Source: a virus (taxonomy: Duplodnaviria; Heunggongvirae; Uroviricota; Caudoviricetes). From it: DNA of 64,000 nucleotides. Position numbers and translations under genes: made by a program. Below, in pieces: positions 277-38,670 of this stretch (the first letter of the stretch is position 1; each line of letters begins with the position of its first letter). The notes under the pieces are model-generated. The model did no database searches and was not told where the DNA came from. It worked only from the letters and a program-made list of their open reading frames with translations. The DNA lies in the IMG/VR virus record IMGVR_UViG_3300033068_001655. The stretch is one strand, 5' to 3'.

Positions 277-1113
277 TTACTCACTATTTTTTATAATATA
301 ATTTATTGTACTTCTTGAGACATTAAAATGTTTTGCAATATCAATTTGTTTTTTACCTTCACTATACATTTTAATAACATCTTCTTTATTAACTCTATTG
401 TATTTTATACCTAATTCATTTTTATATTTTTTTATTATATCACTTATTGTACCATTTGAGGCACTAAAATGTTTTGCAATATCAATTTGTTTTTTACCTT
501 CACTATACATTTTAATAACTAAATCTCTATCAATTTTATGTTGTTTTTCTTTATAATTTATTACTTTAGAATAGATTTCATGTTTATACTTATTATAAAA
601 ACTTATATCAGAGTGTTCTAATACATGACAGTTTGCACACAAAACATCACACTTATTAATTTCATCCTTTATTAGTTTAGAAAGATCATATATAGAGTTG
701 AATCTTTCACTAATACTACCTATTGAAAATTCCTTTTCGTTAGGATCTCTATGATGAAATGTTAAACTAGCAGGACATTTATTGTAACCACATTTTATAC
801 ATTCACTTCCACCATATTCTAAGTATATTAATTTAGATCTACTTCTTTCATTATTATCCTCATTGTAATGATGTTCTCTATGACAATTTTGACACAGTAT
901 AATACATTTATCTAATTCATTTTTTATTTTTGATAATCTATAATTTTTTGATTCTCCAAACTCAAAATCTTTATTATTTTTATCAATATGATGAAATGTT
1001 AACTGAAATATATTATTGTTTTGACAATTTTGGCATACACCATCTTTATTGTTTAATAATATAATTTTTTTTGCATATTTTAGTATTTTCTGTAATTTTA
1101 ATTTTTTTTCCAT
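277..1113 (-). CDS. HNH homing endonuclease with two tandem HNH motifs and two tandem C-terminal HTH repeats
   Basis: Two copies of the C-x2-C...FHH(I/R)D...N...LC-x-NCH-x-x-H pattern (HNH fold). The C-terminus carries a duplicated DVIKMYSEGKKQIDIAKHF helix-turn-helix. Sits next to the tRNA cluster. Confidence 0.7.
   Translation of the reverse strand: MEKKLKLQKILKYAKKIILLNNKDGVCQNCQNNNIFQLTFHHIDKNNKDFEFGESKNYRLSKIKNELDKCIILCQNCHREHHYNEDNNERSRSKLIYLEYGGSECIKCGYNKCPASLTFHHRDPNEKEFSIGSISERFNSIYDLSKLIKDEINKCDVLCANCHVLEHSDISFYNKYKHEIYSKVINYKEKQHKIDRDLVIKMYSEGKKQIDIAKHFSASNGTISDIIKKYKNELGIKYNRVNKEDVIKMYSEGKKQIDIAKHFNVSRSTINYIIKNSE
323..521. repeat. Perfect 56-bp direct repeat (323-378 and 466-521) inside the HNH gene, encoding the duplicated HTH
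   Basis: aaaatgttttgcaatatcaatttgttttttaccttcactatacattttaataac occurs twice, 143 bp apart. Confidence 0.85.
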
Positions 1114-1565: not shown

Positions 1566-2756
1566 TTAACTTCTTAATTGAAATGTACCATTTGTCTCAT
1601 TTAACAAGAAGTGTCTTTTATCTGGTTGTTGAGTATATAAAGTTGCTGTATTTCCTTTATCCTCAACATTAAACACCATAAATCTAAAACTATCTAAATA
1701 TGGAAATGGTTTATTCATATCCACTTTAATTTTAGTTGTCATTTGTTGATTATTATTACCATTATAGTGAGATAATTTATACTCATTACTCTCTGCCCAT
1801 TTCTTAAATAAGTTTTGAATATGATCATTAGCATAAACACGATCCATATATTTACCTTTATCAGTTTCCCAAAGTAAACAACGTCCTATCAATTTATCCT
1901 CTGCATTAGTAAGAATTAGCATCTTAACATTATTATCTATATTCGTATAGATGTCAAAGAAATCTTGACATTGATTTAATCTCATACAAGAATTGTTTAA
2001 TGTACCACAACCTTTTGCATAATTTGCTTCCAAATACCATTTCTTAACTTCTTCACCTTCAACAACTTTGAAGTATTCAAAAGCATTTCTATCAAATGCA
2101 TTGTTTGATTTATATAAATTGACAAAAGTTTCAATGTCTTTCGCGTTAAATTTAACGTGTTTGTTGTTTTTTTGAATTTCAGTTAAAACTTTATTAAGAA
2201 ATCTACCGAACTTAATCTCAGTTGATTTTGTAGTACTATCATCAATTGATGGTCTTAATGCACTTATTTGTCTAAGACTGTCTGCATGAAGAATAGAAAA
2301 TTCTTTCTCTTGACCAACAGAAGTTAAATGTATGATTTTATAATCACCTTCATATCTACTCCAAGCAGGATATTCTGCAACAATTTTAAATTTAACACCT
2401 TGTGTACTATCTCCTTGGTTAAACCTTCCGTTAAAAAATACGTTTTTTGAATAACGGTTTTCGTCATTTGCTTCAATTCCTTCTGCTTGTAACATTTGTT
2501 TTAATGCCACTCTATAGATTTCATGATTTAAACCAACTACGGTTGGATTAGGAAGTGTGTATAAAAAGTTATCTTTAGAGACTTTACTACTATAAAATTT
2601 TACAGTATCATCATCTTTACCTTTGTCTACTGATAAAAAATCAGTTATTTTATAAGAATCACTTAAAAAATAACTTAGAATGTCCATCTGTTCACCAGTT
2701 GTACATTGATTCTGAATTGTTCTGATTATACTATGAAGTTGTTCTCCTATTAACAT
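1566..2756 (-). CDS. Hypothetical protein embedded in the tRNA cluster; paralog of the 29036-30226 protein
   Basis: Long ORF. Track start 2861 overlaps the tRNA 3' end, so start was moved to internal ATG at 2756 (396 aa, same length as its paralog). Shared C-terminal block IGRCLLWETDKGKYMDRVY versus IGRALLWTLDDGRQLMDTIY. Function unknown. Confidence 0.6.
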   Translation of the reverse strand: MLIGEQLHSIIRTIQNQCTTGEQMDILSYFLSDSYKITDFLSVDKGKDDDTVKFYSSKVSKDNFLYTLPNPTVVGLNHEIYRVALKQMLQAEGIEANDENRYSKNVFFNGRFNQGDSTQGVKFKIVAEYPAWSRYEGDYKIIHLTSVGQEKEFSILHADSLRQISALRPSIDDSTTKSTEIKFGRFLNKVLTEIQKNNKHVKFNAKDIETFVNLYKSNNAFDRNAFEYFKVVEGEEVKKWYLEANYAKGCGTLNNSCMRLNQCQDFFDIYTNIDNNVKMLILTNAEDKLIGRCLLWETDKGKYMDRVYANDHIQNLFKKWAESNEYKLSHYNGNNNQQMTTKIKVDMNKPFPYLDSFRFMVFNVEDKGNTATLYTQQPDKRHFLLNETNGTFQLRS

Positions 2757-2830
2757 ATTTGCTTGGTTTTTATTACTCGACAAAAGTAATAATAAGTTAT
2801 GAGTTATACAAATAAAATTTGATTTTTTTG

Positions 2831-2963
2831 GTAGAAAGGTGGGACTCGAACCCACAACCACGGCTTTAAAAGAGCGAAGTAACTTATTTCATTGCTACTA
2901 AATTTCTTTAGAGAAAGACTGATTAAGTATGATTACGTGCTCTACCAATTGAGCTACTTTCTA
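2831..2963 (-). tRNA. tRNA gene with ~60-nt internal insertion (putative intron or disrupted tRNA); isotype undetermined
   Basis: The 5' half tagaaag-ta-gctc aattggta gagc and the 3' half gtggg ttcgagt cccac ctttcta are perfectly complementary acceptor halves. They are separated by ~60 extra nt, and no intact anticodon arm exists in either half. Confidence 0.5.
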
Positions 2964-2969
2964 CATTTG

Positions 2970-3044
2970 TGGAGACTCCAGTTATCGAAGCTGGGTCGCA
3001 AGGGCCCTTCCGCCCTCCGCTCTACCATTCTGAGCTAAATCTCC
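2970..3044 (-). tRNA. tRNA-like gene with non-canonical anticodon loop (6-nt ggaagg loop, or 8-nt if the closing pair is open)
   Basis: Acceptor ggagatt/agtctcc and D arm gctc agaatggta gagc are canonical, with a T arm. The anticodon region agggc ggaagg gccct lacks U33. Possible pseudogene. Confidence 0.45.
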
Positions 3045-3361: not shown

Positions 3362-3370
3362 ATTTTCTTG

Positions 3371-3456
3371 TTCCCCCTACAGGACTCGAACCTGTGACCC
3401 ATCGTTTAAAAGACGATTGCTCTAAGCTTAACGCAAACCAACTGAGCTAAGAGGGA
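3371..3456 (-). tRNA. tRNA-Lys (UUU)-like with ~11-nt insertion in the D-loop
   Basis: Acceptor tccctct/aggggga; anticodon arm atcgt/cttttaa/acgat and T arm acagg ttcgagt cctgt are perfect. The D region gctc agttggtt-tgcgttaagct-ta gagc is ~11 nt too long (86 nt total). Confidence 0.55.
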
Positions 3457-4017: not shown

Positions 4018-4428
4018 TTAGTATTTCATAATTTCTCTTATAAATTCATCAATTGTATTGAATTTATTTTTTTTATATAATTTTAATATTTTTATTTTAG
4101 ATATATTACCATTTTTACTTTTTCTTCTATTGATAGAATGTTTTAAATTTTCTTGTTGTGTCAGACATTCTAAATTATTAACATTATTATTTTGTCGGTC
4201 ACCATCTATATGATTAACTTGTAAATCTTCACTATAATTATTAACAAATGTCATTGCTACAATTCTGTGTACAAGAAGCGTCTTTGACTTTTTATTATTT
4301 GTTAGACTCACATCCATATATCCTCTATTATTTAATCTTACTCTCATTATTCTATTTGTCTTTGTATTTATTATGACACCATCCTCATTTATAGAATAAT
4401 TTTCAAATCCTTTAATTTTTTTAAACAT
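4018..4428 (-). CDS. HNH homing endonuclease (NUMOD4 + HNH_3 type)
   Basis: N-terminal GFENYSINEDGVI (NUMOD4-like) and LVHRIVAMTF...VNHIDGDRQNNNVNNLECLTQQENLKH (HNH_3). Bounds the 5' side of the tRNA island. Confidence 0.75.
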   Translation of the reverse strand: MFKKIKGFENYSINEDGVIINTKTNRIMRVRLNNRGYMDVSLTNNKKSKTLLVHRIVAMTFVNNYSEDLQVNHIDGDRQNNNVNNLECLTQQENLKHSINRRKSKNGNISKIKILKLYKKNKFNTIDEFIREIMKY

Positions 4429-4453
4429 AACAATTTATTTTTATTGTATATAT

Positions 4454-4480
4454 AAAAAAACCCGAACGCTTTTGTTCGGG
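4454..4480 (-). terminator. Rho-independent terminator (cccgaac/gttcggg stem, T7 run on minus strand)
   Basis: aaaaaaa cccgaac gctttt gttcggg. Downstream of the minus-strand run of small genes 5520-4727. Confidence 0.5.
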
Positions 4481-4726
4481 TTATATGTTATGTTTTTAAT
4501 CTCTATAATACTAATTTGGAGTTATACTCCATCAAAGTCTGAGAACGACATACTCATACATCCGAACTTGTGGCTAAACCACTTGAACGATTTACTAAAG
4601 CTTGTATGTTTAAAATTTGTTCTCATTATTGTATATATTAAAAGTTTATTCTTCCTTTTTGTTATTTTGTTATTTTTATAGTACAAAAGTAATAAAAGTT
4701 TACTTATCTACCAAATTTATTTTAAT

Positions 4727-4978
4727 TTATTTTAAAATTTCGTTTAATTTATCATTTCGGAGTGTACTAACACTTCTTTTTACATTAGCATATACTTTCA
4801 TGTCATTCTTAATAACTAATTCATAATCAAATTCATCATCTTCTTTAATAGGTAATAATGTTTTAATTTGACTCAAATCTAAAAATATATGAGTTAGTAA
4901 ACTATACATAGTAGTTGCAAAAACTCCATCATCATCTATGAGTGAGTAGTTATCGTTACCGTCTGTTATTAGTTTCAT
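4727..4978 (-). CDS. Hypothetical small protein
   Basis: 83-aa ORF in a minus-strand operon. TATATTTG motif lies directly upstream of the ATG. Confidence 0.4.
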   Translation of the reverse strand: MKLITDGNDNYSLIDDDGVFATTMYSLLTHIFLDLSQIKTLLPIKEDDEFDYELVIKNDMKVYANVKRSVSTLRNDKLNEILK

Positions 4979-5005
4979 ATCTTATACAAATATACAAAAT
5001 TATTT

Positions 5006-5251
5006 TTACAAACCAAGAATTTGTTCAAGTTTTTTATCTCTGTATTCTTCTAAAGTTAGAAAATCTCTTGCGTAGTATTGTCCAAGTTTATTCTTCTTAT
5101 CGTCATAAACATCATATATAGGACAGATACCATAATCACCTAGAAGTTTCTCTTCTATATAAGTACCCCAATAAGTTTCGTTTACAACTAATTTTTTATT
5201 TCTTGTATAGGAAATATCTGGTTCCTCTATACATATTATTTTTAAAACCAT
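5006..5251 (-). CDS. Hypothetical small protein
   Basis: 81-aa ORF, tightly packed with its neighbours. Confidence 0.4.
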   Translation of the reverse strand: MVLKIICIEEPDISYTRNKKLVVNETYWGTYIEEKLLGDYGICPIYDVYDDKKNKLGQYYARDFLTLEEYRDKKLEQILGL

Positions 5252-5253
5252 AT

Positions 5254-5520
5254 TTAAAGTCTTTTAATGTCAGGTAAAGTTTCACTTGAGTTTATTAAGT
5301 TACGAATAACTGCTTTTTTTAAAGGAGTAAGTTTTTTATTCTTTAAAGTTTCTTCTACAATAGTGTGATAAGTTAGTACAGACATATTGTGACTTTTGAA
5401 GTTAGTTGACTCATTTTTAATGAGTTCATCATAATCTGCACTTGGCATTGATTCTTTAAATAATTGACGATGTATATCGAGAATTATCTTTTCCTCTTTA
5501 CTAATTTTGGTCATTTCCAT
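5254..5520 (-). CDS. Hypothetical small protein
   Basis: 88-aa ORF. Confidence 0.4.
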   Translation of the reverse strand: MEMTKISKEEKIILDIHRQLFKESMPSADYDELIKNESTNFKSHNMSVLTYHTIVEETLKNKKLTPLKKAVIRNLINSSETLPDIKRL

Positions 5521-5566: not shown

Positions 5567-5770
5567 ATGCCTGCTAAATCGAGACAGCAATTAAAATACA
5601 TATTTGCGATGCGTCGTAAATATAAAAATAAAAAAAGTGCTCCTAAACATATGAAGTGGGTATTTAACAAAGATTGGACCCACAATGTCAAAGCATCGGG
5701 GTTACCAACCAAAGTTAAAAATTTTCAAACCTATATATCCGAGAATTATGATGCTACTACTAAAAAGTAG
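5567..5770 (+). CDS. Small basic protein, DUF3008-like (MPAKS...KxxGLPxKV)
   Basis: MPAKSRQQLKYIF...KASGLPTKVK resembles the phage DUF3008 family from memory. Converges on and overlaps the tyrS 3' end by ~25 nt. Confidence 0.4.
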   Translation: MPAKSRQQLKYIFAMRRKYKNKKSAPKHMKWVFNKDWTHNVKASGLPTKVKNFQTYISENYDATTKK

Positions 5771-6999
5771 TTTTTCTTACCTCTCTGAACTATAATAAAT
5801 TTGTCATTTATCAAATCACCATCAGTTACGATGTAGTTATCTTCTCTTTTTATTTTATTTATTGCAACAGAGTTTTCTTTTAAGGCTCTTCTTGCTTCAC
5901 TAACAGATTTTAAGAACCCAGTTTTAAATAAAATATCAGTCATTGATATACCATTTACAATATCTTTCATTGGAATATTTGCCATTGGTAATCCACTAAA
6001 TATATCTAAAATTGTTTCATTATCAAGTGAATTTAAGTTACCGTTATTGAATAGAATGTTTGATGCTTCTACTGCTTTGTTAAACTCTTCTTCACCATGA
6101 ACCATTATAGTGATTTCTTTAGCCAATGTTTTTTGTAATAAAAACAAATGTTTGGCTTTATTGTGTTCTTCTATTAAATTATCAATAGTTTCTTTATCTA
6201 AAAATGTAAAGATTTTAATAAATCTTTCTGCATCTGCATCATCAGTACTTACCCAAAATTGGAAAAACTTGTAAACAGATGTTTTATCTTTATCTAACCA
6301 TATATTCCCACCTTCTGATTTACCAAATTTTGTACCATCAGCTTTTGTTAAAAGAGGACAAGTCATTGCAAATGCTTCTCTACCTGGGAACATCTTATGT
6401 ATCAATTCAGTACCGGTTGTTATATTACCCCATTGATCAGAACCACCCATTTGTAATAAACAGTTATGTTCTTTATTAAGGTGTAAGAAATCGTACCCTT
6501 GAATCAATTGGTAAGTAAACTCTGTGAAAGACATACCTTCACCTTCAATACGGTTTTTTACAGACTGTTTTGATAACATGTAATTTACGGTAATTCTTTT
6601 ACCAATGTCTCTTACAAAGTCTATAAAACTAAACTTTGACATCCAATCGTAGTTGTTAAGAACTGGTGTATCACCTAAAAATCTGGTTAAAGTATTTTTT
6701 ATACCTTCTACATTTTTATTAAGTATTTCTTCATCTAAAAGATTTCTTTCAGAAGATTTACCAGAAGGGTCACCGATCATACCAGTAGCACCACCGACAA
6801 CTGCGATTGGATTATGTCCAAAGTTCTTCATGTGTTTTAACAGAATTATTGGAACTAAACTACCTATATGTAGAGAATCTGACGTTGGGTCAAATCCAAT
6901 ATAAGCGGTGGTGGCTTCTTTTAAAAGTTGAGCCTCCGTTCCGGGTATCATATCATGTACTAACCCACGCCATTTTAATTCTTCTACTATATTTTTCAT
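5746..6999 (-). CDS. tyrS: Tyrosyl-tRNA synthetase, bacterial type with C-terminal S4 domain
   Basis: HIGH-class motif DPTSDSLHIGSLVP, GGSDQWGNI, KMSKS-equivalent KFGKS, C-terminal S4-like region. Confidence 0.9.
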   Translation of the reverse strand: MKNIVEELKWRGLVHDMIPGTEAQLLKEATTAYIGFDPTSDSLHIGSLVPIILLKHMKNFGHNPIAVVGGATGMIGDPSGKSSERNLLDEEILNKNVEGIKNTLTRFLGDTPVLNNYDWMSKFSFIDFVRDIGKRITVNYMLSKQSVKNRIEGEGMSFTEFTYQLIQGYDFLHLNKEHNCLLQMGGSDQWGNITTGTELIHKMFPGREAFAMTCPLLTKADGTKFGKSEGGNIWLDKDKTSVYKFFQFWVSTDDADAERFIKIFTFLDKETIDNLIEEHNKAKHLFLLQKTLAKEITIMVHGEEEFNKAVEASNILFNNGNLNSLDNETILDIFSGLPMANIPMKDIVNGISMTDILFKTGFLKSVSEARRALKENSVAINKIKREDNYIVTDGDLINDKFIIVQRGKKNYFLVVAS

Positions 7000-9256: not shown

Positions 9257-9601
9257 TAAGTATAAATCATTTTGTCTAGCTTCTAATTCTGTTAAAAGAA
9301 AAACACATTCTCTTCTTAAATCTTTAAGTTTTAAAAAATCTGAGGTATTACTTACTTTAGATAATTGATCGTTAAGATTATCAATCTCAATTTTTATCAT
9401 ATCTATCATTAAGCTCATTTCTTTGATTATATCACCTTTTAAATCAAGTACTAAGGATTTAAAATAAGGATTTATCATAATAATTCCTTTATAATCACTA
9501 GAAGTAAAATTCTTCATGATTCTTTTAAGTATTTCTATGACTTCATCCTCAGTACCTGAAAGGTGTAGTTTATCGAGATATTCTAATAAGCTTAACTTCA
9601 T
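9248..9601 (-). CDS. Hypothetical protein
   Basis: 117-aa ORF. Confidence 0.4.
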   Translation of the reverse strand: MKLSLLEYLDKLHLSGTEDEVIEILKRIMKNFTSSDYKGIIMINPYFKSLVLDLKGDIIKEMSLMIDMIKIEIDNLNDQLSKVSNTSDFLKLKDLRRECVFLLTELEARQNDLYLLF

Positions 9602-10452
9602 ATCATCTTTTTACATTTATATATAAGACTGCTACTAAATCCTTTTTTTAATATATCCTTGATTGAGTAACCATCTTTTAACAAACCTTTTACCAATTCT
9701 TTTTTATCAGATTTTAATAACTTATCTTCTATTCTATCCCACTTTCTAGACATTATTGGTAGATTTAAACGAACACATTGTTCTTTAATATCTTTAAGTA
9801 TATTATACTTTGATATAAAGATAATTGAACAATTTTCATATATTTTTGCATCTTTAGTTTCCTTAGTTAAATGAGTATAGAAATATTCTAATATAGAAGA
9901 CCAAGATTCATGACATTTAATTATCAATCTACCTTTTTTATTAATAGAGCCATCACCGTCAATAAACCCTATTATTAAACTAAATAATTGTTCATCATTT
10001 AACCAATTAGGTAGTATAGGAGGTATTTTAGTTTTATTGGATTTCCAATTAAAATCTCTAGTAATTTTATCTATAGTTATTTTATCAGATAAAACTACAC
10101 TAATTCTACTTTCATTTTCATATACTTTTACATGACCCAAATGATCTGTTATTTTTAATATATGTAATCTATCCTTAGTTGATATATTTATTTGTATTCT
10201 TTTATCTTTTGTAATATGTCCATCTGCTAACATAAACCCCAACCAATAACAAGAAATATTATCATATTCTATTAATTTGGAATATTTAAAACTATTATTG
10301 TTTTCATTAAAACTTCTTTTTATTTTAAAAAAATGTGCTTTCTTTTGTATATAGTTCCAAGATAATCCTAAATCAGTAATAATAGTTTCTTTACTTGAAG
10401 ATGGATAATTTTCTTTTAAATAGTTCTCTAACTTTGTTTTAGTGTGTCTCAT
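9598..10452 (-). CDS. LAGLIDADG homing endonuclease (double-motif, free-standing)
   Basis: YWLGFMLADGHI and LIIGFIDGDGSI motifs. TAATATATAGT motif ~20 nt upstream of the ATG. Confidence 0.8.
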   Translation of the reverse strand: MRHTKTKLENYLKENYPSSSKETIITDLGLSWNYIQKKAHFFKIKRSFNENNNSFKYSKLIEYDNISCYWLGFMLADGHITKDKRIQINISTKDRLHILKITDHLGHVKVYENESRISVVLSDKITIDKITRDFNWKSNKTKIPPILPNWLNDEQLFSLIIGFIDGDGSINKKGRLIIKCHESWSSILEYFYTHLTKETKDAKIYENCSIIFISKYNILKDIKEQCVRLNLPIMSRKWDRIEDKLLKSDKKELVKGLLKDGYSIKDILKKGFSSSLIYKCKKMI

Positions 10453-13195: not shown

Positions 13196-13797
13196 TAGTC
13201 TAAATACATTTCATCTATTTGATCAAACTCTTTCTTAGATTGTTCCATCAAAATCTGACGACCGTTTCTAATTTGAGATTTTATTGTAGATAAATTTTTT
13301 CCTAACTTATCCGCAATGTCTTTATATTGCATTCTTTCAATCTCTCTCATTATAATAACTGTCTTATACGGTTCTTTTAATTCAGAGATATGTTTTTTCA
13401 TTACGTCTGCTTTTTGTGAGAAAACATCATAAACTGCTTCATTACTTTCTGTTTCTTGTATAAAGTCTTTTAAAGTAGTTCCTTCATCATCAAACTCAAT
13501 GTCTAATGATATGTTTCTGTTTTCAAGTTTTTTATCTTGTAAAGATAAGTTTTTTGCGATTGTGAATAACCACGTTGAAAATTGTGATTTTTCTTTTTGA
13601 TACATTTCTATTTTTTCCAGTGCTATCATAAATGAGTCTGTTGAAATGTCTTCAGCTTTTTGTACATCATTACAAATTCTTGATGTAAAGTAGATTAGTT
13701 TTGGGTAATACTTTTGATAAAGTGTTGCGAAATCTTTACCAGTTCTTTCTTTAAAAATTTTCTCTTGTTCAGAGAATGGGGTTGTGCTTAATTCCAT
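13195..13797 (-). CDS. RNA polymerase sigma factor, sigma-70 family (ECF-like, regions 2 and 4)
   Basis: Region 2 FATLYQKYYPKLIYFTSR...AEDISTDSFMIALEKI...FSTWLFTIAKN and region 4 YKTVIIMREIERMQYKDIADKLGKNLSTIKSQIRNGRQIL. Confidence 0.8.
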   Translation of the reverse strand: MELSTTPFSEQEKIFKERTGKDFATLYQKYYPKLIYFTSRICNDVQKAEDISTDSFMIALEKIEMYQKEKSQFSTWLFTIAKNLSLQDKKLENRNISLDIEFDDEGTTLKDFIQETESNEAVYDVFSQKADVMKKHISELKEPYKTVIIMREIERMQYKDIADKLGKNLSTIKSQIRNGRQILMEQSKKEFDQIDEMYLD

Positions 13798-18101: not shown

Positions 18102-21100
18102 ATGGTTCAAAGTTCATTTCCAAAAGTAGCGGATCAAATAATAACGTATAATAAAAATATAGTTGAGATTTTATCAAAAATCAATTCTTTACAAACTACT
18201 CAAAATCCATCTGTAACTTTACAAGTATATGATGAGAATGGTGTGTTAAGAAATTATACACTACCATCTTTTTCATCTTTAAAAGCAGATATTGATAGAT
18301 TGAATAATAATATCAATTCTCTTTATAGTATTGATGCAGCAGGTGCTTTAATTCAAACATCAACTCAAAATAAATACAAAAAAATCATTACTGTTGATTT
18401 GAATAGAGACCCTACTCCTGTAGGAAGTTTAGGTTCTTTGACTACTTTTAAATCTGCACCTAACTGGTTCTTTGACTCTCTTATGGACCCTATGGTTTCA
18501 GTAGAGATTGATTTATCAGGTAAGATTGAGGATAATGTTAGAAAATGTTTAGTTAGAAGATATATTGTAGAGTTTGCAAAAAATGCAGACGGTACATTTA
18601 CTACACTTGGACAATCAGCGTTAAATAGTTATAACCAATTATTTAGAGGAAATGGAAATATAGTTCTATCAGAATTTGAGAACTGGTATACAACAACTAC
18701 TGGTTTAGTAAACCCTAGTAATCCTAAATATGATGAACAAATGTTTGATTTAGAACCTAATAACTTATTATATGATGGTCAGTTTAGTGTTTTAAGAATA
18801 CAAGAAGATAGATTAAATAGAAAACTTTGGTATGTTTTAGATACACTTGATTATTTAGTAGTTGATACAAACTCAACTAAAAAATTATCTATTGGTGATG
18901 AAGTTATTATAAACTCTGATAAAACATCGACAAGATATAAAATATTAGAAGTTTCTACTGCAGAGTCTAATCCAAAAATTAGAGTTGAGAGAGTTGAAGG
19001 TATTGAACCAATTCCAGTTGGAATTGGAACTTTGAAAGTTTATTCATCGGTTATTTATACTAAAAAAGTTAGAGTAAGTGTTGGTTATAATGAGAGAAAT
19101 ATTCTTTTTATCAAACCAGTAAATGCTGATAATAATTTAGTTGCAAAAAAATGGAGTTTAGGTACAGGTTACTATACAAATGATTTGAGATTGGATTCTA
19201 CATCTAGTGCAAATGGTTTATCAATGGAACAATTTTACATCGATTATGTTTATGATTATGGGGTTGTTTTACAAGATTTAGTTGCAAAGAAAACTCCTAA
19301 TTCATTGGCCGGTACACCATTATCACCAACATTGACAACTGATAACTTTAAGGTTGTTCAAATTAATAAACACCTTACAGATACACCTGATTCTAACTTA
19401 ATTAAACAAAAACATAACTATCAATTATCTTTAAAATCTGAGATACAACAAATACAAGAAGCTATATTAGCGAGAAATAAAGCTGGTAAGTTTACTAAGT
19501 TTAAGTCAGATTCTGCCAAAAAACAAGCAGACTTAGAAATACAAGATTTAACTACTAAGAAAGATAGTAAAAGTAAACTATTGGCATCCGTAACTCAAGA
19601 AATTATTGACTTATCAAAAGATCCAAAGAATAAAGTGGCTCCTAAGTTTAGTGTAAGAGGTTTCTGGACTATACCAAGTGCAGTTGTTACTACTGGTACT
19701 AAACCACAAGAGATCGTTCAATTTAGAGTACAGTATAGATATACAAGTAAAGATGGTAAAGAAGCTCCAGTAGATACATTTACTATTACTGATTCTCAAA
19801 GTAAAGCTTCCTATTCTAACTGGAATGAGTATAAGACAGATGCTAGAAAAAGAGAATATAATAGTACAACTGGTGAGTACACTTGGGCAATAGAAGATAT
19901 TACTAATGCAGATACTCCGAATATTAATCAAATAGATATTCCAGTTCAGTCTAATGAAAGAGTTGATATTAGAATTAAATCTATTTCTGAAGTTGGTTGG
20001 CCAGAATCTCCAGTTGAATCTGATTGGTCAGAAATTATCACAATTGACTTCCCAGATGATTTAAACACTATCGCAAATGAAAATGATTTCATTTTGGCTG
20101 CCGCAACTAAAGAAGATTTAAAAGTAAGTGTTAATTCAGAATTATCCGCAAAAGGATTAGATAGTCACTTAGCAGATACGGTAACTGTAAATAATGTTAC
20201 ATTTCATCATGAGGCTAAAAAGATTTTATCCGGTTTCCAAGATGAGAATGGTGTATCATTAGATTTGTATGCTTACATTCAAAAGTTGACTGATAGAATT
20301 ACTTCACTAGAAGAAAAAATCACAAGAGCTAAAGGTGAACTTCAAATTATTATTCTTAGAAATAATCAAGAGTTTATTGTTAATAATGGTTCAGAGACAA
20401 CATTCAACGTTGAATGTGAAGATTATTTAACCACATTTACTGGACAAGGTGCTCCAACAGGAAGAGTTTATGAGAATAACATTTATGTTATTAAAGACTT
20501 TGTTATAAAAGTTAAAAATAATGCAAAAGAGTCATCATTAGGTTTATTATCAAATAGAACTTACTTGGGTAATTCTGATACTGTTTATAACCCAATAACA
20601 CCACAAGTATTCTGGGTTAATAATCAGGATGAGTTGAAAACAATTGATGTGATTAGTGGTCAAACAAGAACTCAAATGGATAATCAATTTATTTGGTCAG
20701 TAAACTATGACTCGATTACTCAAACTACAGTTGCAAAACTATCTGAAAACATTGGTAATAACTTTACTAATTCAGGAGTAAACTCAAACTCTATTACAAA
20801 TGTACTTTCAACAAACGATTATAATGTTGGATATAACGAAAATACATTGTTATCATTTATTGGTAAAAATAATTCATTGTTAGATCCTTCAAAATGGATT
20901 GATACTGCAGTTTCTGTTTCTTCAACAACTAAATTCTTAACTACTATACATCCAGTTGTAAAAGACTTGGAAAATATTCAAGAGTTAAATAGTGATAAAG
21001 TTAAAACAATTGCACCAGGTGATAAAAATTCAGTTATAATACCATTAAATATTTATTTCAAATTAAACTCACTTGATACAAGCTTAACAGGTTTAAACTA

Positions 21101-26548: not shown

Positions 26549-27637
26549 ATGACAAACGAAATTTTAAACCCAGAATTAGGAAACCCAGATTTCGAGCTTT
26601 TATTCGAGGAAAAAAGCTATAGAAAGGGTAAAAATATGAGTGATAAAGATCTTGATGCTCTTTATAGCTCTATTAAATTAGAAGTGCCACAAGTAGGTAA
26701 TGTGGTTAGATCTAAATACCAAGGTATTATGGCAAATCAGTTTGTATTTAGCGTTGACGGATTCAAAGATGATGTTAGAGTTGAAGACAAACCAGGTGAA
26801 GCTAAATACCTTAAAAATTGCAACACTGGAGATGAGGTTGATGTTTTAATTACCGAGATAAATCACGGTCAATATTTCATCAAAGGAAGTATAGCTTCTT
26901 TATATGAGTCAAGAGCTCACGAAAACCTTAAATCTCTAGAGGAAGGAGAATCAGTAACTGCCTACGTTAGAGCACTTAACCCAGCTGGTTATGATGTTGA
27001 GATTACAAATGGAGGAGTAACTCTTCCAGGATTTATGCCAAATACCTTAGCAGGTATCAACAAACTTTACGACCCAACTTCAATTGTTGGAGATACGTTC
27101 CAAGTTATGATTGAGTCTTTCTCAGAACATGAAGGAACTTATATCGTAAGTCGTAGAAAATACTTACAAACTTTAATTCCAGAAGAAATTAGTAATCTTG
27201 AGTTTAATGTGTTGTATAGTGGTAGAGTAACTGGAACAACACCATTTGGTATCTTTGTCGAGTTCAACGAGTGTTTAACTGGTATGATTCACAAAGCAAA
27301 TGTGACTGAAGAGTGGCAAAACAGAATCTCCGAAATTAAACCAGGACAAGAGATTGAGTTCTTTATTAAAGAAATCATTAAGGAGAAAATTATCCTTACT
27401 CAAGTTCTGAGAGAAACACTTTGGGACACCATCAAAAACGGTCAATTGATCGATGGTAAAGTAAAAGATGTTAAGCAATTTGGAGCTTTAGTTATCTTAG
27501 ATGATGAAACAGTTGGATTAGTCCACACATCAGAAATGGAGAAACTTGGTAGAAAGCTTACATCTGGACAGGACATCAAAGTAAAAGTTTTATCAGTTGA
27601 TAGACAAAGTCGTAAAATTTTTCTTACAATTGGATAA
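26549..27637 (+). CDS. Multi-S1-domain RNA-binding protein (ribosomal protein S1-like)
   Basis: Three S1 repeats recognised, including C-terminal GKVKDVKQFGALVILDDETVGLVHTSEM...GQDIKVKVLSVDRQSRKIFLT. Confidence 0.7.
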   Translation: MTNEILNPELGNPDFELLFEEKSYRKGKNMSDKDLDALYSSIKLEVPQVGNVVRSKYQGIMANQFVFSVDGFKDDVRVEDKPGEAKYLKNCNTGDEVDVLITEINHGQYFIKGSIASLYESRAHENLKSLEEGESVTAYVRALNPAGYDVEITNGGVTLPGFMPNTLAGINKLYDPTSIVGDTFQVMIESFSEHEGTYIVSRRKYLQTLIPEEISNLEFNVLYSGRVTGTTPFGIFVEFNECLTGMIHKANVTEEWQNRISEIKPGQEIEFFIKEIIKEKIILTQVLRETLWDTIKNGQLIDGKVKDVKQFGALVILDDETVGLVHTSEMEKLGRKLTSGQDIKVKVLSVDRQSRKIFLTIG

Positions 27638-31051: not shown

Positions 31052-32944
31052 TTATTTTTTAGAGTCTTTTTTATCTGTTGTAGTTTCAACTACTGCATCA
31101 GTATCTACTACATTTCCGGTTTTCATACCTTTACCCATCATTTCCATGATTTGCATTCCAAGTAATCCATCTAATGAACCGTTACCTTGTCCACTACCAT
31201 TGATTAGTAAATCTGGCATAATTTTCACTTTACCTTTACCAATCTCTTCTGTTACTTTGAATGTCGTAAAGTTGTCTTTACCCATTGCATCAACAGCCAA
31301 TCTATACGCTTCTGCAGTTGATTTACCCACTGATAAGATTGCATTCGCTTCTGCTTCACCAATAACGGTTTTTCTTGTAGCTTCTGCTTTAGCATTCAAT
31401 GTTGTAGCTTCTGCGTTAGCTTCTGCTGCAATTTTTACTGAACGAGCTTTACCAGTTGCGTCTTTAACCGCGGAGTCAGCTAATCTTTCAGAGATTTGAA
31501 CACCTTGGTCAGCTTTTACTAACTCACCTTGCATATCAGCAATAGCAGTTTCTTTTTCAAGAGTTTGACGTTGTACTTGAGCTTTTTTCTGAGTCTCAAA
31601 TGTTACTTGTTGCTCTTCTGCAATTTTACGGTCAGTTAATGTTTTCATCAATGACTCTGGTGGAGTAATATCTCCGATAAGTGTATCTACAGCGTGTACG
31701 TTATATTCGTCCAATACTTTAGAGATCTCTTTCTTAGCAGCATCTTGTCTTGATTGACGAGTAGATAAGAACGCGATAACGTCTGAATCTTGAGCAGAGT
31801 TACGGAAGTAGTTACCAATTGTTGGTTCTAATACTTGAGATACAAGTGCTTGTGTAGAACCGAAACGAGCAATTACTTTAGGTGCTTCATTCATTGGAAT
31901 GTGGATAATCTGTGATACATCCAAATTGAATGGGAAACCGTCTTTAGAACGTACTGTAATTGTACTTAAACCTTTATCTAAGTTGTGAGACTCTGTACGA
32001 GCATTTGCCCAGTTAAGTACAAGATTTGTTGTAGGTACAATCTCAATCTTAGTTGTATAAGGGTTGATTGCATATTTACCTGGACCCTTAGGTTCAGCCC
32101 AAACACCTTTTTGTCCTTTAGATACTAAGTTACCGTGTTTAAACCCAGCACCAGTTACGTCAACTCCTTCTTCACCAACATATGAAATAACAACACCACA
32201 ATTACCAATTGGAATATTAGTCATTTGTACTTCTTCAACTTGAACAGCCCAAGGGTTTAAGTTGTAAGAACCTGCTTGAATAACTTGACCTTGTAATCCA
32301 CGATTACCACCTGCTGCTAAGAAAGCATCAAAATCTTGGAAGTTATTGTGTCCTTCAACAGATTCTCCTGCAATTTGACCTGAACTAAGTGGTTCACCAT
32401 CTAATGTAGTAACAATACCCACCATATTTTCTTGAACGCTAACTTGTTTAACTGCAGATACTTCAAATAAGAATGTATTGATTTTATAGCTACCGTTAGT
32501 AATATAAGCGGCTTGACGACCTTTTTGACCACCATTTTGAAGGAAAGCTGTAGCATCTTGATAATTATCACATTCAACTTTACGTCCTAAGATACGTCCT
32601 GTTGGTGGAACTTTACCATCTTTAGAAGAAATTAAACCAATGTGTCCCTCAGGAATAACTATAAATCCTTGCATATCAACTGAATACTGCCATGGCCACA
32701 TAAACCAATGTAAACCAGTTTCTAACATTTTTGCTTGTAAACCTGCTTCACCATTTACTGCGATGATTCTATCACCACTTAATTGTTTGTTCTCACCAAA
32801 AAGAACGAATTTTTTCGTTACTAAACCAATCTTGTTCTCAGGAACAATAACTAGTCCAAAAAATACACGAAAAATGAACTTGTACATAAGAATACATACT
32901 AGTCCGAGAATTGCTGGCCAATAGGCCAAAATCTGTGTTACCAT
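31052..32944 (-). CDS. SPFH/band-7 (flotillin-like) membrane protein, 630 aa
   Basis: N-terminal TM helices, an SPFH core, and a long Ala/Glu/Gln-rich flotillin-type coiled coil (AEEQQVTFETQKKAQVQRQTLEKE...AEANAEATTLNAKAEATRK). GC ~40% against a ~27% background. Confidence 0.8.
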   Translation of the reverse strand: MVTQILAYWPAILGLVCILMYKFIFRVFFGLVIVPENKIGLVTKKFVLFGENKQLSGDRIIAVNGEAGLQAKMLETGLHWFMWPWQYSVDMQGFIVIPEGHIGLISSKDGKVPPTGRILGRKVECDNYQDATAFLQNGGQKGRQAAYITNGSYKINTFLFEVSAVKQVSVQENMVGIVTTLDGEPLSSGQIAGESVEGHNNFQDFDAFLAAGGNRGLQGQVIQAGSYNLNPWAVQVEEVQMTNIPIGNCGVVISYVGEEGVDVTGAGFKHGNLVSKGQKGVWAEPKGPGKYAINPYTTKIEIVPTTNLVLNWANARTESHNLDKGLSTITVRSKDGFPFNLDVSQIIHIPMNEAPKVIARFGSTQALVSQVLEPTIGNYFRNSAQDSDVIAFLSTRQSRQDAAKKEISKVLDEYNVHAVDTLIGDITPPESLMKTLTDRKIAEEQQVTFETQKKAQVQRQTLEKETAIADMQGELVKADQGVQISERLADSAVKDATGKARSVKIAAEANAEATTLNAKAEATRKTVIGEAEANAILSVGKSTAEAYRLAVDAMGKDNFTTFKVTEEIGKGKVKIMPDLLINGSGQGNGSLDGLLGMQIMEMMGKGMKTGNVVDTDAVVETTTDKKDSKK

Positions 32945-37926: not shown

Positions 37927-38670
37927 TTATTTATTTAGTTGGTTAAAAATTGTTTGCATTCCGTTTGTAGCAACATCTTCAATGTGATGAAAATACGGTA
38001 ATTTATAATCTGGTATATCATACATCAACATATCTATTTTAGAAGGTTCGATGTAATATACAGGAGTTTTAAAATCTGTTAAAAATGGAATTTCATTTGC
38101 AGGAGATACTTGTAATGATGTACCAACAATTATACAGAAGTCACATTCTTCTGCAGCTTTTACTGCAGTATTTACATCAGAACTATCTAATTCTTCACCA
38201 AACCATACAATGTGTGGTCGTAGTTGAGAACCAGTTTTCTGACATTTATCACCTATTTTTATTTCTCCGTATCCTATATCAATAATTGTATCTAATGGAC
38301 TTGTTTTATGTGTGTACATACAACCTCTTGCTTTAGTTAGTTCACCGTGTAAGTGAATAACATTGGTAGAACCTGCTCTTTCATGTAGGTCGTCAACATT
38401 CTGAGTAACTACTGTTACATCAAAATTTTCTTCTAGTTTGGCAATTAGTTCGTGTGCTAAGTTTGGCACAACATCTTTTAACTGTGCTCTTCTTTGATTA
38501 TAAAAATCTAAAACTAACTCTCGGTCTTTTCGCCATGCACCTGGTGTGGCGACATCTTCAATCCTATGGTTATTCCATAAGCTCTCGGTAGAATCTCTAA
38601 ATGTTTCGATTCCACTTTCTTTTGAAACTCCTGCTCCAGTAAATACTAATATTTTTTTTCTTTCATTCAT
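37927..38670 (-). CDS. Sir2-family NAD-dependent protein deacylase (CobB-like)
   Basis: FTGAGVSKESGIETFRD, QNVDDLHERAG, Cys zinc ribbon. Confidence 0.8.
   Translation of the reverse strand: MNERKKILVFTGAGVSKESGIETFRDSTESLWNNHRIEDVATPGAWRKDRELVLDFYNQRRAQLKDVVPNLAHELIAKLEENFDVTVVTQNVDDLHERAGSTNVIHLHGELTKARGCMYTHKTSPLDTIIDIGYGEIKIGDKCQKTGSQLRPHIVWFGEELDSSDVNTAVKAAEECDFCIIVGTSLQVSPANEIPFLTDFKTPVYYIEPSKIDMLMYDIPDYKLPYFHHIEDVATNGMQTIFNQLNK

What the first reader, a model, noticed from the sequence alone, without database searches (positions are those of the whole stretch)
2831..2963. tRNA gene split by a ~60-nt insertion (putative intron or mobile-element scar)
Canonical 5' elements (acceptor tagaaag, U8, D arm gctc aattggta gagc) and 3' elements (T arm gtggg ttcgagt cccac, perfectly complementary acceptor ctttcta) are separated by ~60 nt. 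No anticodon arm can be formed from either half alone. The insert is too short for a group I intron, the type known in bacterial and phage tRNA genes, and is nearer the size of archaeal/eukaryal tRNA introns. That would be unusual in a phage. Alternatively this is a tRNA pseudogene hit by an insertion.
Basis: partly seen in the sequence, partly recalled or inferred. Interest (0 to 1): 0.65.

Follow-up and report, generated by a model that had tools for sequence, protein, structure and literature searches.

The report
tRNA-Lys carrying a Y-RNA module
A phage tRNA-Lys gene is interrupted, in the stem just above its anticodon, by a 60-base hairpin of the kind found in RNAs encoded next to Ro60-family protein genes, so it is most likely a tRNA-shaped 'Y RNA' rather than a gene with an ordinary intron or a dead gene.

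Summary
On the minus strand (2963→2831) lies a complete tRNA body: 7-bp acceptor stem, D arm, T arm and an intact Lys(UUU) anticodon loop. Exactly 60 nt are inserted between tRNA positions 28 and 29, in the 5' strand of the anticodon stem. It is not a scar. The same architecture recurs in about 70 non-redundant genes from cultured jumbo phages (GAP32, BF, XbC2), crAss-like phages, many viral contigs and bacterial chromosomes, with compensatory changes in the split stem and in the insert's helices. It matches no known intron or ribozyme family. The inserts fall into classes, and each class sits beside its own large protein gene. The window's class, with the invariant tail AGUUACUUC, goes with Ro60 (TROVE+vWA). 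In 80 Ro60 loci retrieved by protein alone, all 88 such RNAs lie on the Ro60 strand, and most have anticodon hairpins that cannot decode. Bacterial Y RNAs (YrlA) are known Ro60-bound tRNA mimics with motifs GNCGAA…YUAY. These RNAs share those motifs but are not circularly permuted. Best reading: an unpermuted, tRNA-embedded Y RNA. Caveats: the window has no Ro60 gene, its Ro-binding motif is degenerate, and splicing cannot be excluded.

The parts
2936..2963 (-). 5' part of the tRNA body, nt 1-28: acceptor 5' strand UAGAAAG (2963-2957), U8 A9, D arm GCUCAAUUGGUAGAGC (2954-2939), A26, C27 G28 (2937-2936)
   Evidence: Direct reading. D arm and acceptor recovered by RNAfold and RNAalifold.
2876..2935 (-). 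60-nt insert between tRNA nt 28 and 29 (Y-RNA-type module)
   Evidence: Unique excision giving a 5/5 anticodon stem. Same position in homologues.
2929..2935 (-). Insert lead UAAUCAU (unpaired). UA start shared with most family members.
   Evidence: Alignment A2.
2924..2928 (-). Insert outer helix P1, 5' strand ACUUA (pairs with 2886-2882)
   Evidence: RNAfold of the insert. P1 columns 47-53/90-96 with compensatory changes in RNAalifold. Only 5 bp in the window's copy.
2898..2911 (-). Insert inner hairpin P2, CUAAA-GAAA-UUUAG. Length and sequence vary between close relatives while pairing is kept.
   Evidence: Window vs L001/L002: CUAAGA-AACUC-UCUUAG and CUAA-GAAA-UUAG. P2 covariation.
2887..2897 (-). 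Junction UAGCAAUGAAA, at the position of the GNCGAA(N)G Ro60-binding motif of YrlA-type RNAs. Degenerate in this copy.
   Evidence: Comparison with L028 GCCGAAUAG and L079/L101 GCCGAAG, L249 GUAGCGAAAUG, and the motif definition in PMC4201824.
2882..2886 (-). P1 3' strand UAAGU
2876..2883 (-). Tail motif GUUACUUC (contains YUAY = UUAC). AGUUACUUC is invariant in 13/13 window-type family members.
   Evidence: YUAY definition in PMC4201824.
2861..2875 (-). Anticodon hairpin: G29 C30 U31, loop CUUUUAA (2872-2866, anticodon UUU = Lys), A39 G40 C41, then C42 G43, which pair with G28 C27 across the insert
   Evidence: Split helix 27-28/42-43 conserved in 28/29 loop-unbiased relatives.
2831..2860 (-). 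Variable loop UGGUU, T arm GUGGG-UUCGAGU-CCCAC (2855-2839), acceptor 3' strand CUUUCUA (2838-2832), discriminator C (2831). CCA is not encoded.
   Evidence: Direct reading. RNAfold and RNAalifold.

Best explanation
The locus encodes a tRNA-shaped noncoding RNA of the Y-RNA kind. It is a complete tRNA-Lys(UUU) body with a 60-nt stem-loop module grafted into the 5' strand of the anticodon stem between nt 28 and 29. The mature RNA is therefore a cloverleaf with a fifth arm emerging from a three-way junction.

The module has an outer helix P1, an internal loop, a hairpin P2, and a tail ending AGUUACUUC. It is the counterpart of the Ro60-binding stem of bacterial YrlA Y RNAs (GNCGAA...YUAY).

Inferred mechanism:
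1. The RNA is transcribed with the tRNA array.
2. Its ends are matured like a tRNA's (RNase P, 3' trimming, CCA addition).
3. The insert is bound by a phage-encoded Ro60-family protein encoded elsewhere in this very large genome.
4. The tRNA body gives stability and presents a tRNA-Lys-like surface, including a bona fide Lys anticodon loop, to tRNA-interacting factors.

By analogy with Ro60/Y RNA tethering of PNPase and the rsr-yrlBA-rtcBA RNA-repair operon, the factors engaged could be nucleases, repair enzymes or anticodon nucleases.

Shown here: the anatomy, its conservation and covariation, and the class-specific genomic linkage of such RNAs to Ro60-family genes. Inferred: protein binding, absence of splicing, and the downstream function.
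For: (1) Anatomy. There is a unique 28/29 break with a perfect split stem. The same holds in 12/13 homologues with six stem sequences and in 74 genes overall.

(2) Selection. The insert is 91-94% identical to L001/L002, with changes only in the P2 hairpin, against about 84-87% in the flanks. AGUUACUUC is invariant in 13 diverse members, and P1 and P2 show compensatory changes.

(3) Linkage. ORF clustering of 65 loci gives three proteins that track insert class. Ro60 (Pfam TROVE + vWA_Ro60) goes with the GNCGAA/UUACUU class in 15 loci and never with ACAGCAA. DUF2828+DUF7788 goes with ACAGCAA in 14 loci. A 764-aa Bacteroidota protein goes with GGUCAA.

(4) Loop-unbiased test. In 80 viral Ro60 loci fetched by protein alone, 88 tRNA-shaped RNAs carry GUUACUU. 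They occur in 53 loci, all 88 lie on the Ro60 strand, and the median start is about 300 nt after the Ro60 stop. This meets the published YrlA criterion of within 4 kb on the same strand (PMC4201824).

(5) Of the 65 unique RNAs, 36 lack a D arm, 17 have unusable 'anticodon' hairpins and only 12 have canonical loops. Phage crAss001's copy has a 9-nt loop. Yet nt 27-28 pair with 42-43 in 28/29 (shuffled mean 9.2, maximum 16). So the split helix is a feature of the unspliced RNA.

(6) Motifs. Bacterial copies carry GCCGAAG followed 8-10 nt later by UUAC or UUAU, matching YrlA's GNCGAAN0-1G and YUAY.

(7) Redundancy. The window has two ordinary tRNA-Lys(UUU) genes and one Lys(CUU). GAP32 has one normal and two interrupted copies.

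(8) Large phages can hold the two partners far apart. A 376-kb contig has both Ro60 and the interrupted tRNA-Lys, unlinked. Megaphage-type Ro60 genes occur on contigs of up to 483 kb with GC like the window's. L249 has a tRNA-shaped RNA with GUAGCGAAAUGUGAGUUACUUCG just upstream of such a Ro60, which resembles the window's GUAGCAAUGAAAUAAGUUACUUCG.
Against: - No Ro60, DUF2828 or related gene is detectable in the 64-kb window by tblastn with crAss-type, bacterial and megaphage-type queries, nor by Pfam or PHROGs on the unannotated ORFs.
- The window's GNCGAA-equivalent is degenerate (AGCAAUG) and its P1 has only 5 bp.
- The proposed junction fold scores -19.6 kcal/mol against an MFE of -27.1.
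- The window's copy keeps a flawless Lys anticodon arm, and its relatives L001/L002 keep a flawless Asn arm. That is what one would expect if the RNA still had to decode after removal of the insert.
- Rfam's Y-RNA-type families do not hit these RNAs, although a permuted topology would prevent a hit.
- No binding or expression data exist.
Confidence: 0.58

Rival explanations
1. It is a genuine tRNA intron of a new, protein-dependent kind. The 60 nt are excised at 28|29 by an endonuclease and the halves are joined by an RNA ligase (RtcB or a phage Rnl), giving a functional tRNA-Lys(UUU). The neighbouring Ro60-family proteins would be cofactors or chaperones of this process, or be unrelated to it.
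For: Excision restores a perfect 5-bp anticodon stem and the canonical loop CUUUUAA. The spliced product folds as a textbook cloverleaf at -25.6 kcal/mol. The break position is fixed across lineages and the stem covaries. Annotation pipelines call several homologues tRNA-Lys(UUU). In Salmonella, Ro60 and Y RNAs share an operon with the RtcB ligase (PMC4201824, and PMC7790460 as listed).
Against: The split helix is kept in 28/29 Ro60-linked copies whether or not the loop could decode, so stem conservation does not require splicing. 53 of 65 unique Ro60-linked RNAs could not serve as tRNAs even if spliced. There is no bulge-helix-bulge motif, and no splicing endonuclease is known in bacteria (my knowledge). 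No RNA ligase was found among the window ORFs scanned. Ordinary Lys tRNAs are present alongside. The distance from the AGUUACUUC motif to the junction varies from -1 to +3 nt between members, which is odd for a sequence-defined splice site.
Confidence: 0.2
2. It is a decoy or sensor for anticodon nucleases. The unspliced RNA presents an authentic tRNA-Lys(UUU) anticodon stem-loop as bait for host tRNA-Lys-cleaving defence nucleases. The inserted arm recruits a Ro60-family protein that protects it, sequesters the nuclease or couples to repair. This is a functional refinement of the best explanation, not an alternative anatomy.
For: Among loop-unbiased Ro60-linked copies with a canonical loop, 9 of 12 are CUUUUAA. 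All enterobacterial jumbo-phage copies are Lys(UUU). The window's relatives switch only to Asn(GUU) by one base. tRNA-Lys(UUU) is the classic target of PrrC and PARIS (my knowledge). A Ro60-like phage protein, Bas63 gp130, was reported to counter a defence system and to sit upstream of tRNA genes (PMC11482910). crAss001's TROVE gene is an early gene (PMC10136315).
Against: Most Ro60-linked copies have lost a canonical loop. Cyanobacterial arrays carry many anticodons. My pattern-based retrieval was biased towards CUNUUAA loops. No defence or nuclease gene association was tested.
Confidence: 0.15
3. It is a dead tRNA gene disrupted by a mobile-element scar or a small insertion, with no function.
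For: Homing-endonuclease-like ORFs (HNH, LAGLIDADG) and recent insertions lie in and near the array. One homologue, Pectobacterium phage CBB, has a degenerate anticodon loop, and Serratia phage BF's copy is annotated tRNA-Pseudo.
Against: The insert is conserved above flank level. Motifs are invariant and helices covary across distant taxa. About 70 independent genes share the same break position. Linkage to protein genes is class-specific. There are no target-site duplications or terminal repeats around the insert (direct reading).
Confidence: 0.03
4. It is a self-splicing or self-cleaving mini-ribozyme intron.
For: The size (38-65 nt) is in the range of small self-cleaving ribozymes, and unpaired nucleotides flanking the junction are conserved (UA......UUACUUC).
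Against: No Rfam ribozyme or intron family matches, even at E<=10. Three insert classes with unrelated sequences occupy the same site and each tracks a different protein, which points to protein recognition, not a shared catalytic core. The 5' exon ends in G or U, not in a group-I-type U·G context.
Confidence: 0.04

Closest known systems
Bacterial/phage YrlA-type Y RNAs (Chen et al. 2014, PMC4201824; Ro60/Rsr-bound tRNA mimics)
   Same: Both have a tRNA-like D arm, T arm and acceptor helix joined to a Ro60-binding stem at the place of the anticodon stem. Both carry the motifs GNCGAA(N)G and, about 8-10 nt later, YUAY on the strand leading into the variable loop and T arm. Both are encoded beside and on the same strand as Ro60, often with two or more such RNAs per locus. 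[quoted passage not shown]
   Different: YrlA is circularly permuted: its 5'/3' ends are in the Ro-binding stem, its acceptor-like stem is closed by a loop, and it has no anticodon hairpin. Here the ends are in a normal 7-bp acceptor stem, the Ro-type stem is capped by a loop, and a full anticodon hairpin is retained beside it, giving a three-way junction at 28/29. The window's copy has a degenerate GNCGAA and no Ro60 gene within 64 kb.
Lak megaphage tRNA 'enigmatic introns' (Devoto et al. 2019, PMC6784885)
   Same: Over-long tRNA genes in AT-rich huge phages, with inserts highly conserved between cohorts, no Rfam match and an unknown mechanism.
   Different: The Lak inserts are 79-114 nt, lie in the anticodon loop at 37/38, occur in Tyr, Phe, Thr and Gly tRNAs, and contain an internal T-arm-like GGTTCGAWTCC. 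The insert here is 60 nt, lies at 28/29 in the stem, is of Y-RNA type and has no internal T arm.
Archaeal non-canonical tRNA introns (bulge-helix-bulge, EndA-dependent)
   Same: Short introns (tens of nt) that can sit in the anticodon stem at positions such as 29/30 and need protein enzymes.
   Different: No bulge-helix-bulge can be drawn at the junctions. The carriers are bacteria and their phages, which lack the splicing endonuclease (my knowledge). The inserts are conserved structured modules linked to Ro60-family genes.
Bacterial group I introns in tRNA genes (tRNA-Leu UAA, fMet, Arg, Ile; Patescibacteria Asn/Asp)
   Same: An interruption of a bacterial-type tRNA gene in the anticodon arm region.
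   Different: Group I introns are at least ~200 nt, have a P1-P9 core, sit in the anticodon loop and self-splice. This insert is 60 nt with no such core.
Phage Bas63 gp130 (Ro60-like) and adjacent 'tRNAs' (PhageMaP preprint, PMC11482910)
   Same: A phage Ro60-like protein encoded directly upstream of annotated tRNA genes. The authors speculate that some of those tRNAs are Y RNAs.
   Different: That was speculation only, with no RNA architecture described. Bas63 is probably of the DUF2828 class (an inference from Felixounavirus hits) rather than the Ro60 class relevant to the window.

Membership tests
Y RNA, bacterial YrlA type | Encoded within ~4 kb of, and on the same strand as, a Ro60 (TROVE) gene | tested here: not met
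   There is no Ro60-family gene in the 64-kb window. The feature is met by relatives of the same insert class: 88/88 on the same strand and adjacent in 53/80 Ro60 loci, plus crAss001, L009, L016, L067, L074, L079, L107 and L127. Large phages can separate the two.
Y RNA, bacterial YrlA type | GNCGAAN0-1G motif (presumed Ro60 contact) | tested here: inconclusive
   The window has UAGCAAUGAAA at the equivalent place, which is not a match. Bacterial class members have GCCGAAG, crAss-type members have intermediate forms (GUGUAGAAUAG), and L249 has GUAGCGAAAUG.
Y RNA, bacterial YrlA type | Conserved YUAY following the motif, leading into the V loop/T arm side | tested here: met
   The tail GUUACUUC contains UUAC. 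AGUUACUUC is invariant in alignment A2.
Y RNA, bacterial YrlA type | tRNA-like D arm, T arm and acceptor-like helix | tested here: met
   Direct reading and folds.
Y RNA, bacterial YrlA type | Topology: RNA termini in the Ro-binding stem, acceptor-like stem closed by a loop, anticodon arm replaced | tested here: not met
   The termini are in the acceptor stem, the Ro-type stem is closed by the P2 loop, and the anticodon hairpin is retained. It is therefore an unpermuted variant, not a YrlA member in the strict sense.
Y RNA, bacterial YrlA type | Physically bound by Ro60 | not testable with these tools
   Needs RIP or EMSA.
Canonical tRNA (Rfam RF00005) | Contiguous cloverleaf scoring above the gathering threshold | tested here: not met
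   There is no hit at gathering threshold. The only hit is a 26.9-bit alternative alignment, below the 29-bit threshold. Several homologues do pass as tRNA with a long insertion.
Group I intron in tRNA | At least ~200 nt with a P1-P9 catalytic core, located in the anticodon loop | tested here: not met
   The insert is 60 nt, lies at 28/29, and has no Rfam intron hit at E<=10.
Archaeal/eukaryal protein-spliced tRNA intron | Bulge-helix-bulge motif (two 3-nt bulges around a 4-bp helix) at the splice sites | tested here: not met
   By direct inspection the junctions are CG|UAAUCAU and UACUUC|GCU. The only candidate helix, UAAU/GUUA, competes with the covarying P1 and leaves no symmetric bulges. 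No dedicated BHB-search tool was run.
Small self-cleaving ribozymes (hammerhead, twister, pistol, hatchet) | Match to the family covariance model | tested here: not met
   No such hits at E<=10 in the window locus, nor at gathering threshold in 14 related loci.
Lak-phage tRNA introns | 79-114 nt at position 37/38 with an internal T-arm-like sequence | tested here: not met
   Searches compared.

The most novel reading that the evidence does not exclude
The 28/29 inserts are a previously unrecognised class of bacterial and phage tRNA introns whose removal depends on a Ro60-family ribonucleoprotein. The Ro60, DUF2828 or 764-aa protein would recognise its cognate insert and license cleavage and religation by RtcB or Rnl. 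That would give phages a conditionally activated, nuclease-immune reserve of tRNA-Lys/Asn, and it would mean protein-guided tRNA splicing exists in Bacteria.
Probability: 0.12. Interest if true: 0.92.

Novelty: new variant of a known kind. Interest (0 to 1): 0.66.

Why it matters
1. Over-long or 'pseudo' phage tRNA genes of this 28/29 type get an explanation. They are annotated inconsistently as tRNA-Lys, tRNA-Ser, tRNA-Pseudo or even as a membrane protein. They are tRNA-embedded Y-RNA-like RNAs, not broken genes.
2. Y RNAs gain a new, unpermuted topology in which a complete, potentially chargeable tRNA carries the Ro-type arm. This bears on how Y RNAs arose from tRNAs.
3. RNA partners are predicted for three protein families: Ro60, and by linkage DUF2828/DUF7788 (about 700 cultured phages) and a 764-aa Bacteroidota protein. 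The tractable systems include crAss001, GAP32 and Felix-O1-like phages.
4. The frequent retention of a tRNA-Lys(UUU) anticodon arm suggests a testable link to anticodon-nuclease defence and RNA repair.

Tried and rejected
- **ARAGORN intron mode.** It forces the break into the anticodon loop and yields a spurious suppressor tRNA(UUA). Rejected in favour of exhaustive enumeration.
- **Rfam at a permissive threshold and on 14 related loci.** No intron, ribozyme or Y-RNA family matched. There was only a sub-threshold alternative tRNA alignment using part of the insert as a pseudo-5' half, which is not conserved in other lineages.
- **Target-site duplication or mobile-element scar.** The flanking CG...CG does not restore a stem if treated as a duplication (reading).
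- **Pairing of the insert lead with the tail (UAAU/GUUA) as a bulge-helix-bulge.** It conflicts with the covarying P1.
- **Pairing of the GAACC in the enterobacterial insert lead with the T loop GGUUC.** Not general across classes.
- **T4 species 1/2 RNAs as homologues.** The 3' end is tRNA-like but the architecture differs.
- **Lak-phage introns as the same thing.** Different position, size and content.
- **Megaphage LR745206.1 hit H45 as an interrupted tRNA.** It was two ordinary tRNAs.
- **Insert-only covariance model.** MAFFT register errors in the variable lead made a clean model impractical, so I relied on the invariant 9-mer, RNAalifold and explicit pair counts instead.
- **Search for Ro60/DUF2828 in the window and within 40 kb of GAP32's copies.** Nothing was found.
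- **The 431-aa ORF next to the element.** No Pfam or PHROG hit, and it is absent from relatives, so it is not a conserved partner.
- **Literature searches for phage tRNA introns at 28/29, DUF2828-RNA links and crAss TROVE RNAs.** No description was found in the held library. Two key reviews (PMC10870794, PMC5062991) were not held.
Full report
**Observation**

The feature lies on the minus strand, from 2963 (5' end) to 2831 (discriminator). It sits at the 3' end of a minus-strand array of 11 further tRNA genes, and two more lie downstream.
- acceptor UAGAAAG/CUUUCUA;
- U8;
- D arm GCUC-AAUUGGUA-GAGC;
- T arm GUGGG-UUCGAGU-CCCAC.

Default ARAGORN and Rfam at gathering threshold skip the locus.

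I enumerated all 92 ways of deleting a block so as to leave a standard anticodon arm. One solution has five Watson-Crick pairs. It removes 60 nt (2935-2876) between tRNA positions 28 and 29 and leaves CGGCU-CUUUUAA-AGCCG, the canonical tRNA-Lys(UUU) arm. So the insert lies in the 5' strand of the anticodon stem, not in the loop. The 3' 'half' already holds the whole anticodon loop and three of the five stem pairs.

**It is not chance and not a scar**

BLAST with the locus found single-piece matches of about 119 nt in the cultured jumbo phages Kaldavass, XbC2 and GAP32. It then found Serratia phage BF, the Erwinia pEa_SNUABM phages and Pectobacterium CBB. Exact-pattern scans found near-identical copies in two IMG/VR contigs and more distant ones elsewhere.

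In 12 of 13 copies the same 28/29 excision gives a 5/5 stem, with six different stem sequences: CGGCU, GGCCA, CGAGG, CUGGU, CGACA and GGGCA. Annotators have called these genes tRNA-Lys, tRNA-Ser, tRNA-Pseudo, or have laid a 'membrane protein' CDS over them.

Against its closest relatives L001 and L002, the window's element is 91-94% identical, and the differences are confined to the inner hairpin. The neighbouring tRNA and intergenic DNA are about 84-87% identical. In those relatives a single base change turns the anticodon from UUU to GUU.

A pattern that does not depend on the insert sequence was run against viral and prokaryotic genome collections and followed by strict structural filtering. 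It gave 74 interrupted tRNA genes with a well-defined break. Inserts are 34-87 nt (median 50), and the break peaks at 28/29 (about 38 genes) and 29/30 (about 18). They occur in phage contigs and in bacterial assemblies, including Lachnospiraceae, Bacteroidota, cyanobacteria and a complete Deinococcus chromosome. The window holds only this one.

**Not a known intron or ribozyme**

The insert is far below group I size, and no bulge-helix-bulge can be drawn at its junctions. Rfam finds no intron or ribozyme family, either at E<=10 in the window locus or at gathering threshold in 14 related loci.

The 'enigmatic introns' of Lak megaphage tRNAs (PMC6784885) are a different thing. They are 79-114 nt, lie at 37/38 in the loop, and carry an internal T-arm-like sequence.

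**The turn: class-specific protein neighbours**

The inserts fall into sequence and structure classes:

| Class | Insert features | Examples |
|---|---|---|
| A | A-rich lead, hairpin, then ACAGCAA | GAP32/BF phages, Lachnospiraceae |
| B | Outer helix P1, internal loop CUUGCC...GNCGAA, hairpin P2, tail UUACUU or UUAU | the window, crAss-like phages, cyanobacteria, Deinococcus, Chryseobacterium |
| C | AUUAUC...GGUCAA...AUUUACUUC | Bacteroidota |

Clustering all ORFs from 65 loci gave three large proteins that each track one class:
- Class B sits next to Ro60 (Pfam TROVE + vWA_Ro60).
- Class A sits next to DUF2828+DUF7788 proteins, which some phage records annotate as 'Ro-like RNA binding protein'.
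- Class C sits next to a 764-aa protein.

No mixed cases were seen. The Ro60 beside L009's interrupted tRNA-Lys, whose insert looks like the window's, is 78% identical to gp96 of the cultured phage crAss001. In crAss001 the unannotated 900 nt after gp96 contain a full tRNA-shaped RNA. Its 66-nt insert ends GAGUUACUUCAAA, but its 'anticodon' loop has 9 nt. A second tRNA-shaped RNA follows it.

**Comparison with published Y RNAs**

Chen et al. 2014 (PMC4201824) showed that bacterial Ro60 binds Y RNAs encoded within about 4 kb on the same strand. They also showed that YrlA-type Y RNAs mimic tRNA (D arm, T arm, acceptor-like stem) and carry GNCGAAN0-1G followed by a conserved YUAY.

Class B inserts carry these motifs in the same order and spacing: GCCGAAG, then 8-10 nt, then UUAC or UUAU. 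The topology differs, however. YrlA has its ends in the Ro-binding stem and a closed acceptor-like stem. These RNAs have normal tRNA ends, a capped Ro-type stem and a retained anticodon hairpin.

**Loop-unbiased test**

My pattern scans required a CUNUUAA loop. To remove that bias I retrieved 80 viral Ro60 loci by protein alone. They contain 88 tRNA-shaped RNAs with GUUACUU, in 53 loci. All 88 are on the Ro60 strand, and the median start is about 300 nt after the Ro60 stop.

Of 65 unique sequences:
- 36 lack a normal D arm;
- 17 have a full tRNA body but an unusable anticodon hairpin;
- 12 keep a canonical loop, 9 of them Lys UUU.

Even so, nt 27-28 pair with 42-43 in 28 of 29 full-body copies, through at least six dinucleotide combinations. 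Shuffled partners average 9.2 and never exceed 16. The helix that spans the insert is therefore maintained regardless of decoding capacity. That is what a three-way junction in the unspliced RNA predicts.

**Placing the window's copy**

In a 13-sequence alignment of window-type members, AGUUACUUC is invariant. RNAalifold recovers the acceptor, D and T arms plus insert helices P1 and P2, with compensatory changes. The 8-mer GUUACUUC occurs in the window at chance frequency overall (3 matches against 2.3 expected). Only the copy at 2876-2883 abuts the 28/29 junction.

The weak points are these:
- The window's P1 has only 5 bp.
- Its GNCGAA-equivalent is degenerate (AGCAAUG).
- The proposed fold is not the predicted minimum: -19.6 against -27.1 kcal/mol.
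- The 64 kb contain no Ro60-family gene.

The last point is softened by three observations:
- A 376-kb jumbo-phage contig has Ro60 and an interrupted tRNA-Lys far apart.
- The 635-kb megaphage that best matches the window's tRNA array encodes a Ro60 that is not next to any tRNA.
- Megaphage-type Ro60 genes are common on AT-rich contigs of up to 483 kb. One is from the same metagenome as L002. In L249, one is preceded by a tRNA-shaped RNA whose GUAGCGAAAUGUGAGUUACUUCG resembles the window's GUAGCAAUGAAAUAAGUUACUUCG.

**Mechanism**

I think the most likely reading (confidence about 0.58) is that the RNA is not an intron-containing pre-tRNA. It is a stable tRNA-shaped Y RNA:
1. Its ends are matured as for a tRNA.
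2. Its extra arm is bound by a Ro60-family protein.
3. Its tRNA-Lys body provides stability and a handle for tRNA-binding factors.

Two observations suggest a decoy or sensor role towards anticodon nucleases, or a link to RNA repair. Lys(UUU) loops are frequently retained. And a Ro60-like phage protein has been reported to counter a defence system (PMC11482910). This is inference.

True splicing remains possible (about 0.2), and it is the most exciting reading. A pseudogene or a ribozyme is unlikely.

**Novelty**

Three ideas already exist in the literature:
- tRNA-mimicking Y RNAs (PMC4201824);
- TROVE proteins with a 'tRNA-like partner' in some jumbo phages (PMC7824862);
- a speculation that some phage 'tRNAs' near a Ro60-like gene are Y RNAs (PMC11482910).

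I found no description of the following: the unpermuted architecture with the module inserted at 28/29; the three insert classes with their cognate proteins; or the crAss001 and GAP32 RNAs. Two key reviews were not available to me. I therefore rate it a new variant of a known kind.

Noticed in passing
window 2969-3044 (-): The tRNA next to the split gene has an 8-nt anticodon loop CGGAAGGG. ARAGORN reports 'tRNA-??? anticodon (gaag)', Phe|Leu. It could be a four-base-anticodon (frameshift-type) tRNA or a defective tRNA-Phe. Rfam does not call it at gathering threshold.
   Followed up: no
window 3371-3436 (-): An Rfam tRNA hit (35.7 bits) is missed by default ARAGORN. ARAGORN's intron mode calls tRNA-Leu(UAG) at 3370-3456 with a 9-nt 'intron'. 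The array is also highly redundant: 3 Phe(GAA), 2 His, 2 Trp, 2 Lys(UUU) and 1 Lys(CUU).
   Followed up: no
window 277-1113 (-) and 1566-2861 (-): An HNH+HTH homing-endonuclease-like ORF and a 431-aa ORF with no Pfam or PHROG match flank the tRNAs. Both are absent from the otherwise collinear relatives L001 and L002, so they are recent insertions into the array. A LAGLIDADG-like ORF lies at 9598-10452 (-).
   Followed up: partly
window 5746-6999 (-), 26549-27637 (+), 37927-38670 (-), 31052-32944 (-): The window encodes a tyrosyl-tRNA synthetase, an S1-domain protein, a Sir2-like protein and an SPFH/band-7 protein. An SPFH protein also lies near the TROVE locus of crAss001 (gp91) and in several Ro60-linked loci.
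   Followed up: no
L228 (GAP32, JN882285.1) 13211-13337, about 20000-20121, and 31338-31413; L003; L011; L012: GAP32 has two interrupted tRNA-Lys genes plus one normal one. GAP32_431A ('putative membrane protein') and Kaldavass CDS0183 overlie the RNA and are probably spurious CDSs. The same element is annotated tRNA-Ser(AGA) in CBB and tRNA-Pseudo in Serratia phage BF. CBB's copy has a degenerate 10-nt loop.
   Followed up: partly
L145 (crAss001, MH675552.1) 4420-5325: The unannotated ~900-nt gap after TROVE gene gp96 holds two tRNA-shaped RNAs (4693-4836 and about 4948-5089). It also has two further ACUUACUUCAA motifs in the spacers. None is annotated in the record.
   Followed up: partly
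L052, L059, L076, L116, L128, L139, L020, L042, L065, L111 and others: Arrays of several interrupted tRNAs (Lys, Asn, Gly, Pro, Met and others), all carrying the hairpin+ACAGCAA insert, lie next to DUF2828+DUF7788 genes in Lachnospiraceae-type assemblies and phage contigs. DUF2828 homologues occur in about 700 cultured phages, including Felixounavirus, Listeria, Staphylococcus, Campylobacter and mycobacteriophages.
   Followed up: partly
L007, L031, L048, L088, L100, L117: A third insert class (AUUAUC...GGUCAA...AUUUACUUC) sits beside a 590-764-aa Bacteroidota/phage protein that has only a weak prokaryotic RING-finger match. Its fold and any relation to Ro60 are unknown.
   Followed up: no
L144 (phage T4, NC_000866) 1909-2047 (-): T4 'species 1' stable RNA (rnaC) ends in a tRNA-like T arm and acceptor strand and contains a CUUUUAAAAA stretch. 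It lacks the D arm and the split-stem architecture described here.
   Followed up: partly
L222 1366-2400 (+); L249 1240-1358 (+): L222 has five tandem units ending (A)GUUACUUC upstream of a Ro60 gene. L249 has a 119-nt tRNA-shaped RNA without a D arm immediately upstream of a megaphage-type Ro60.
   Followed up: no
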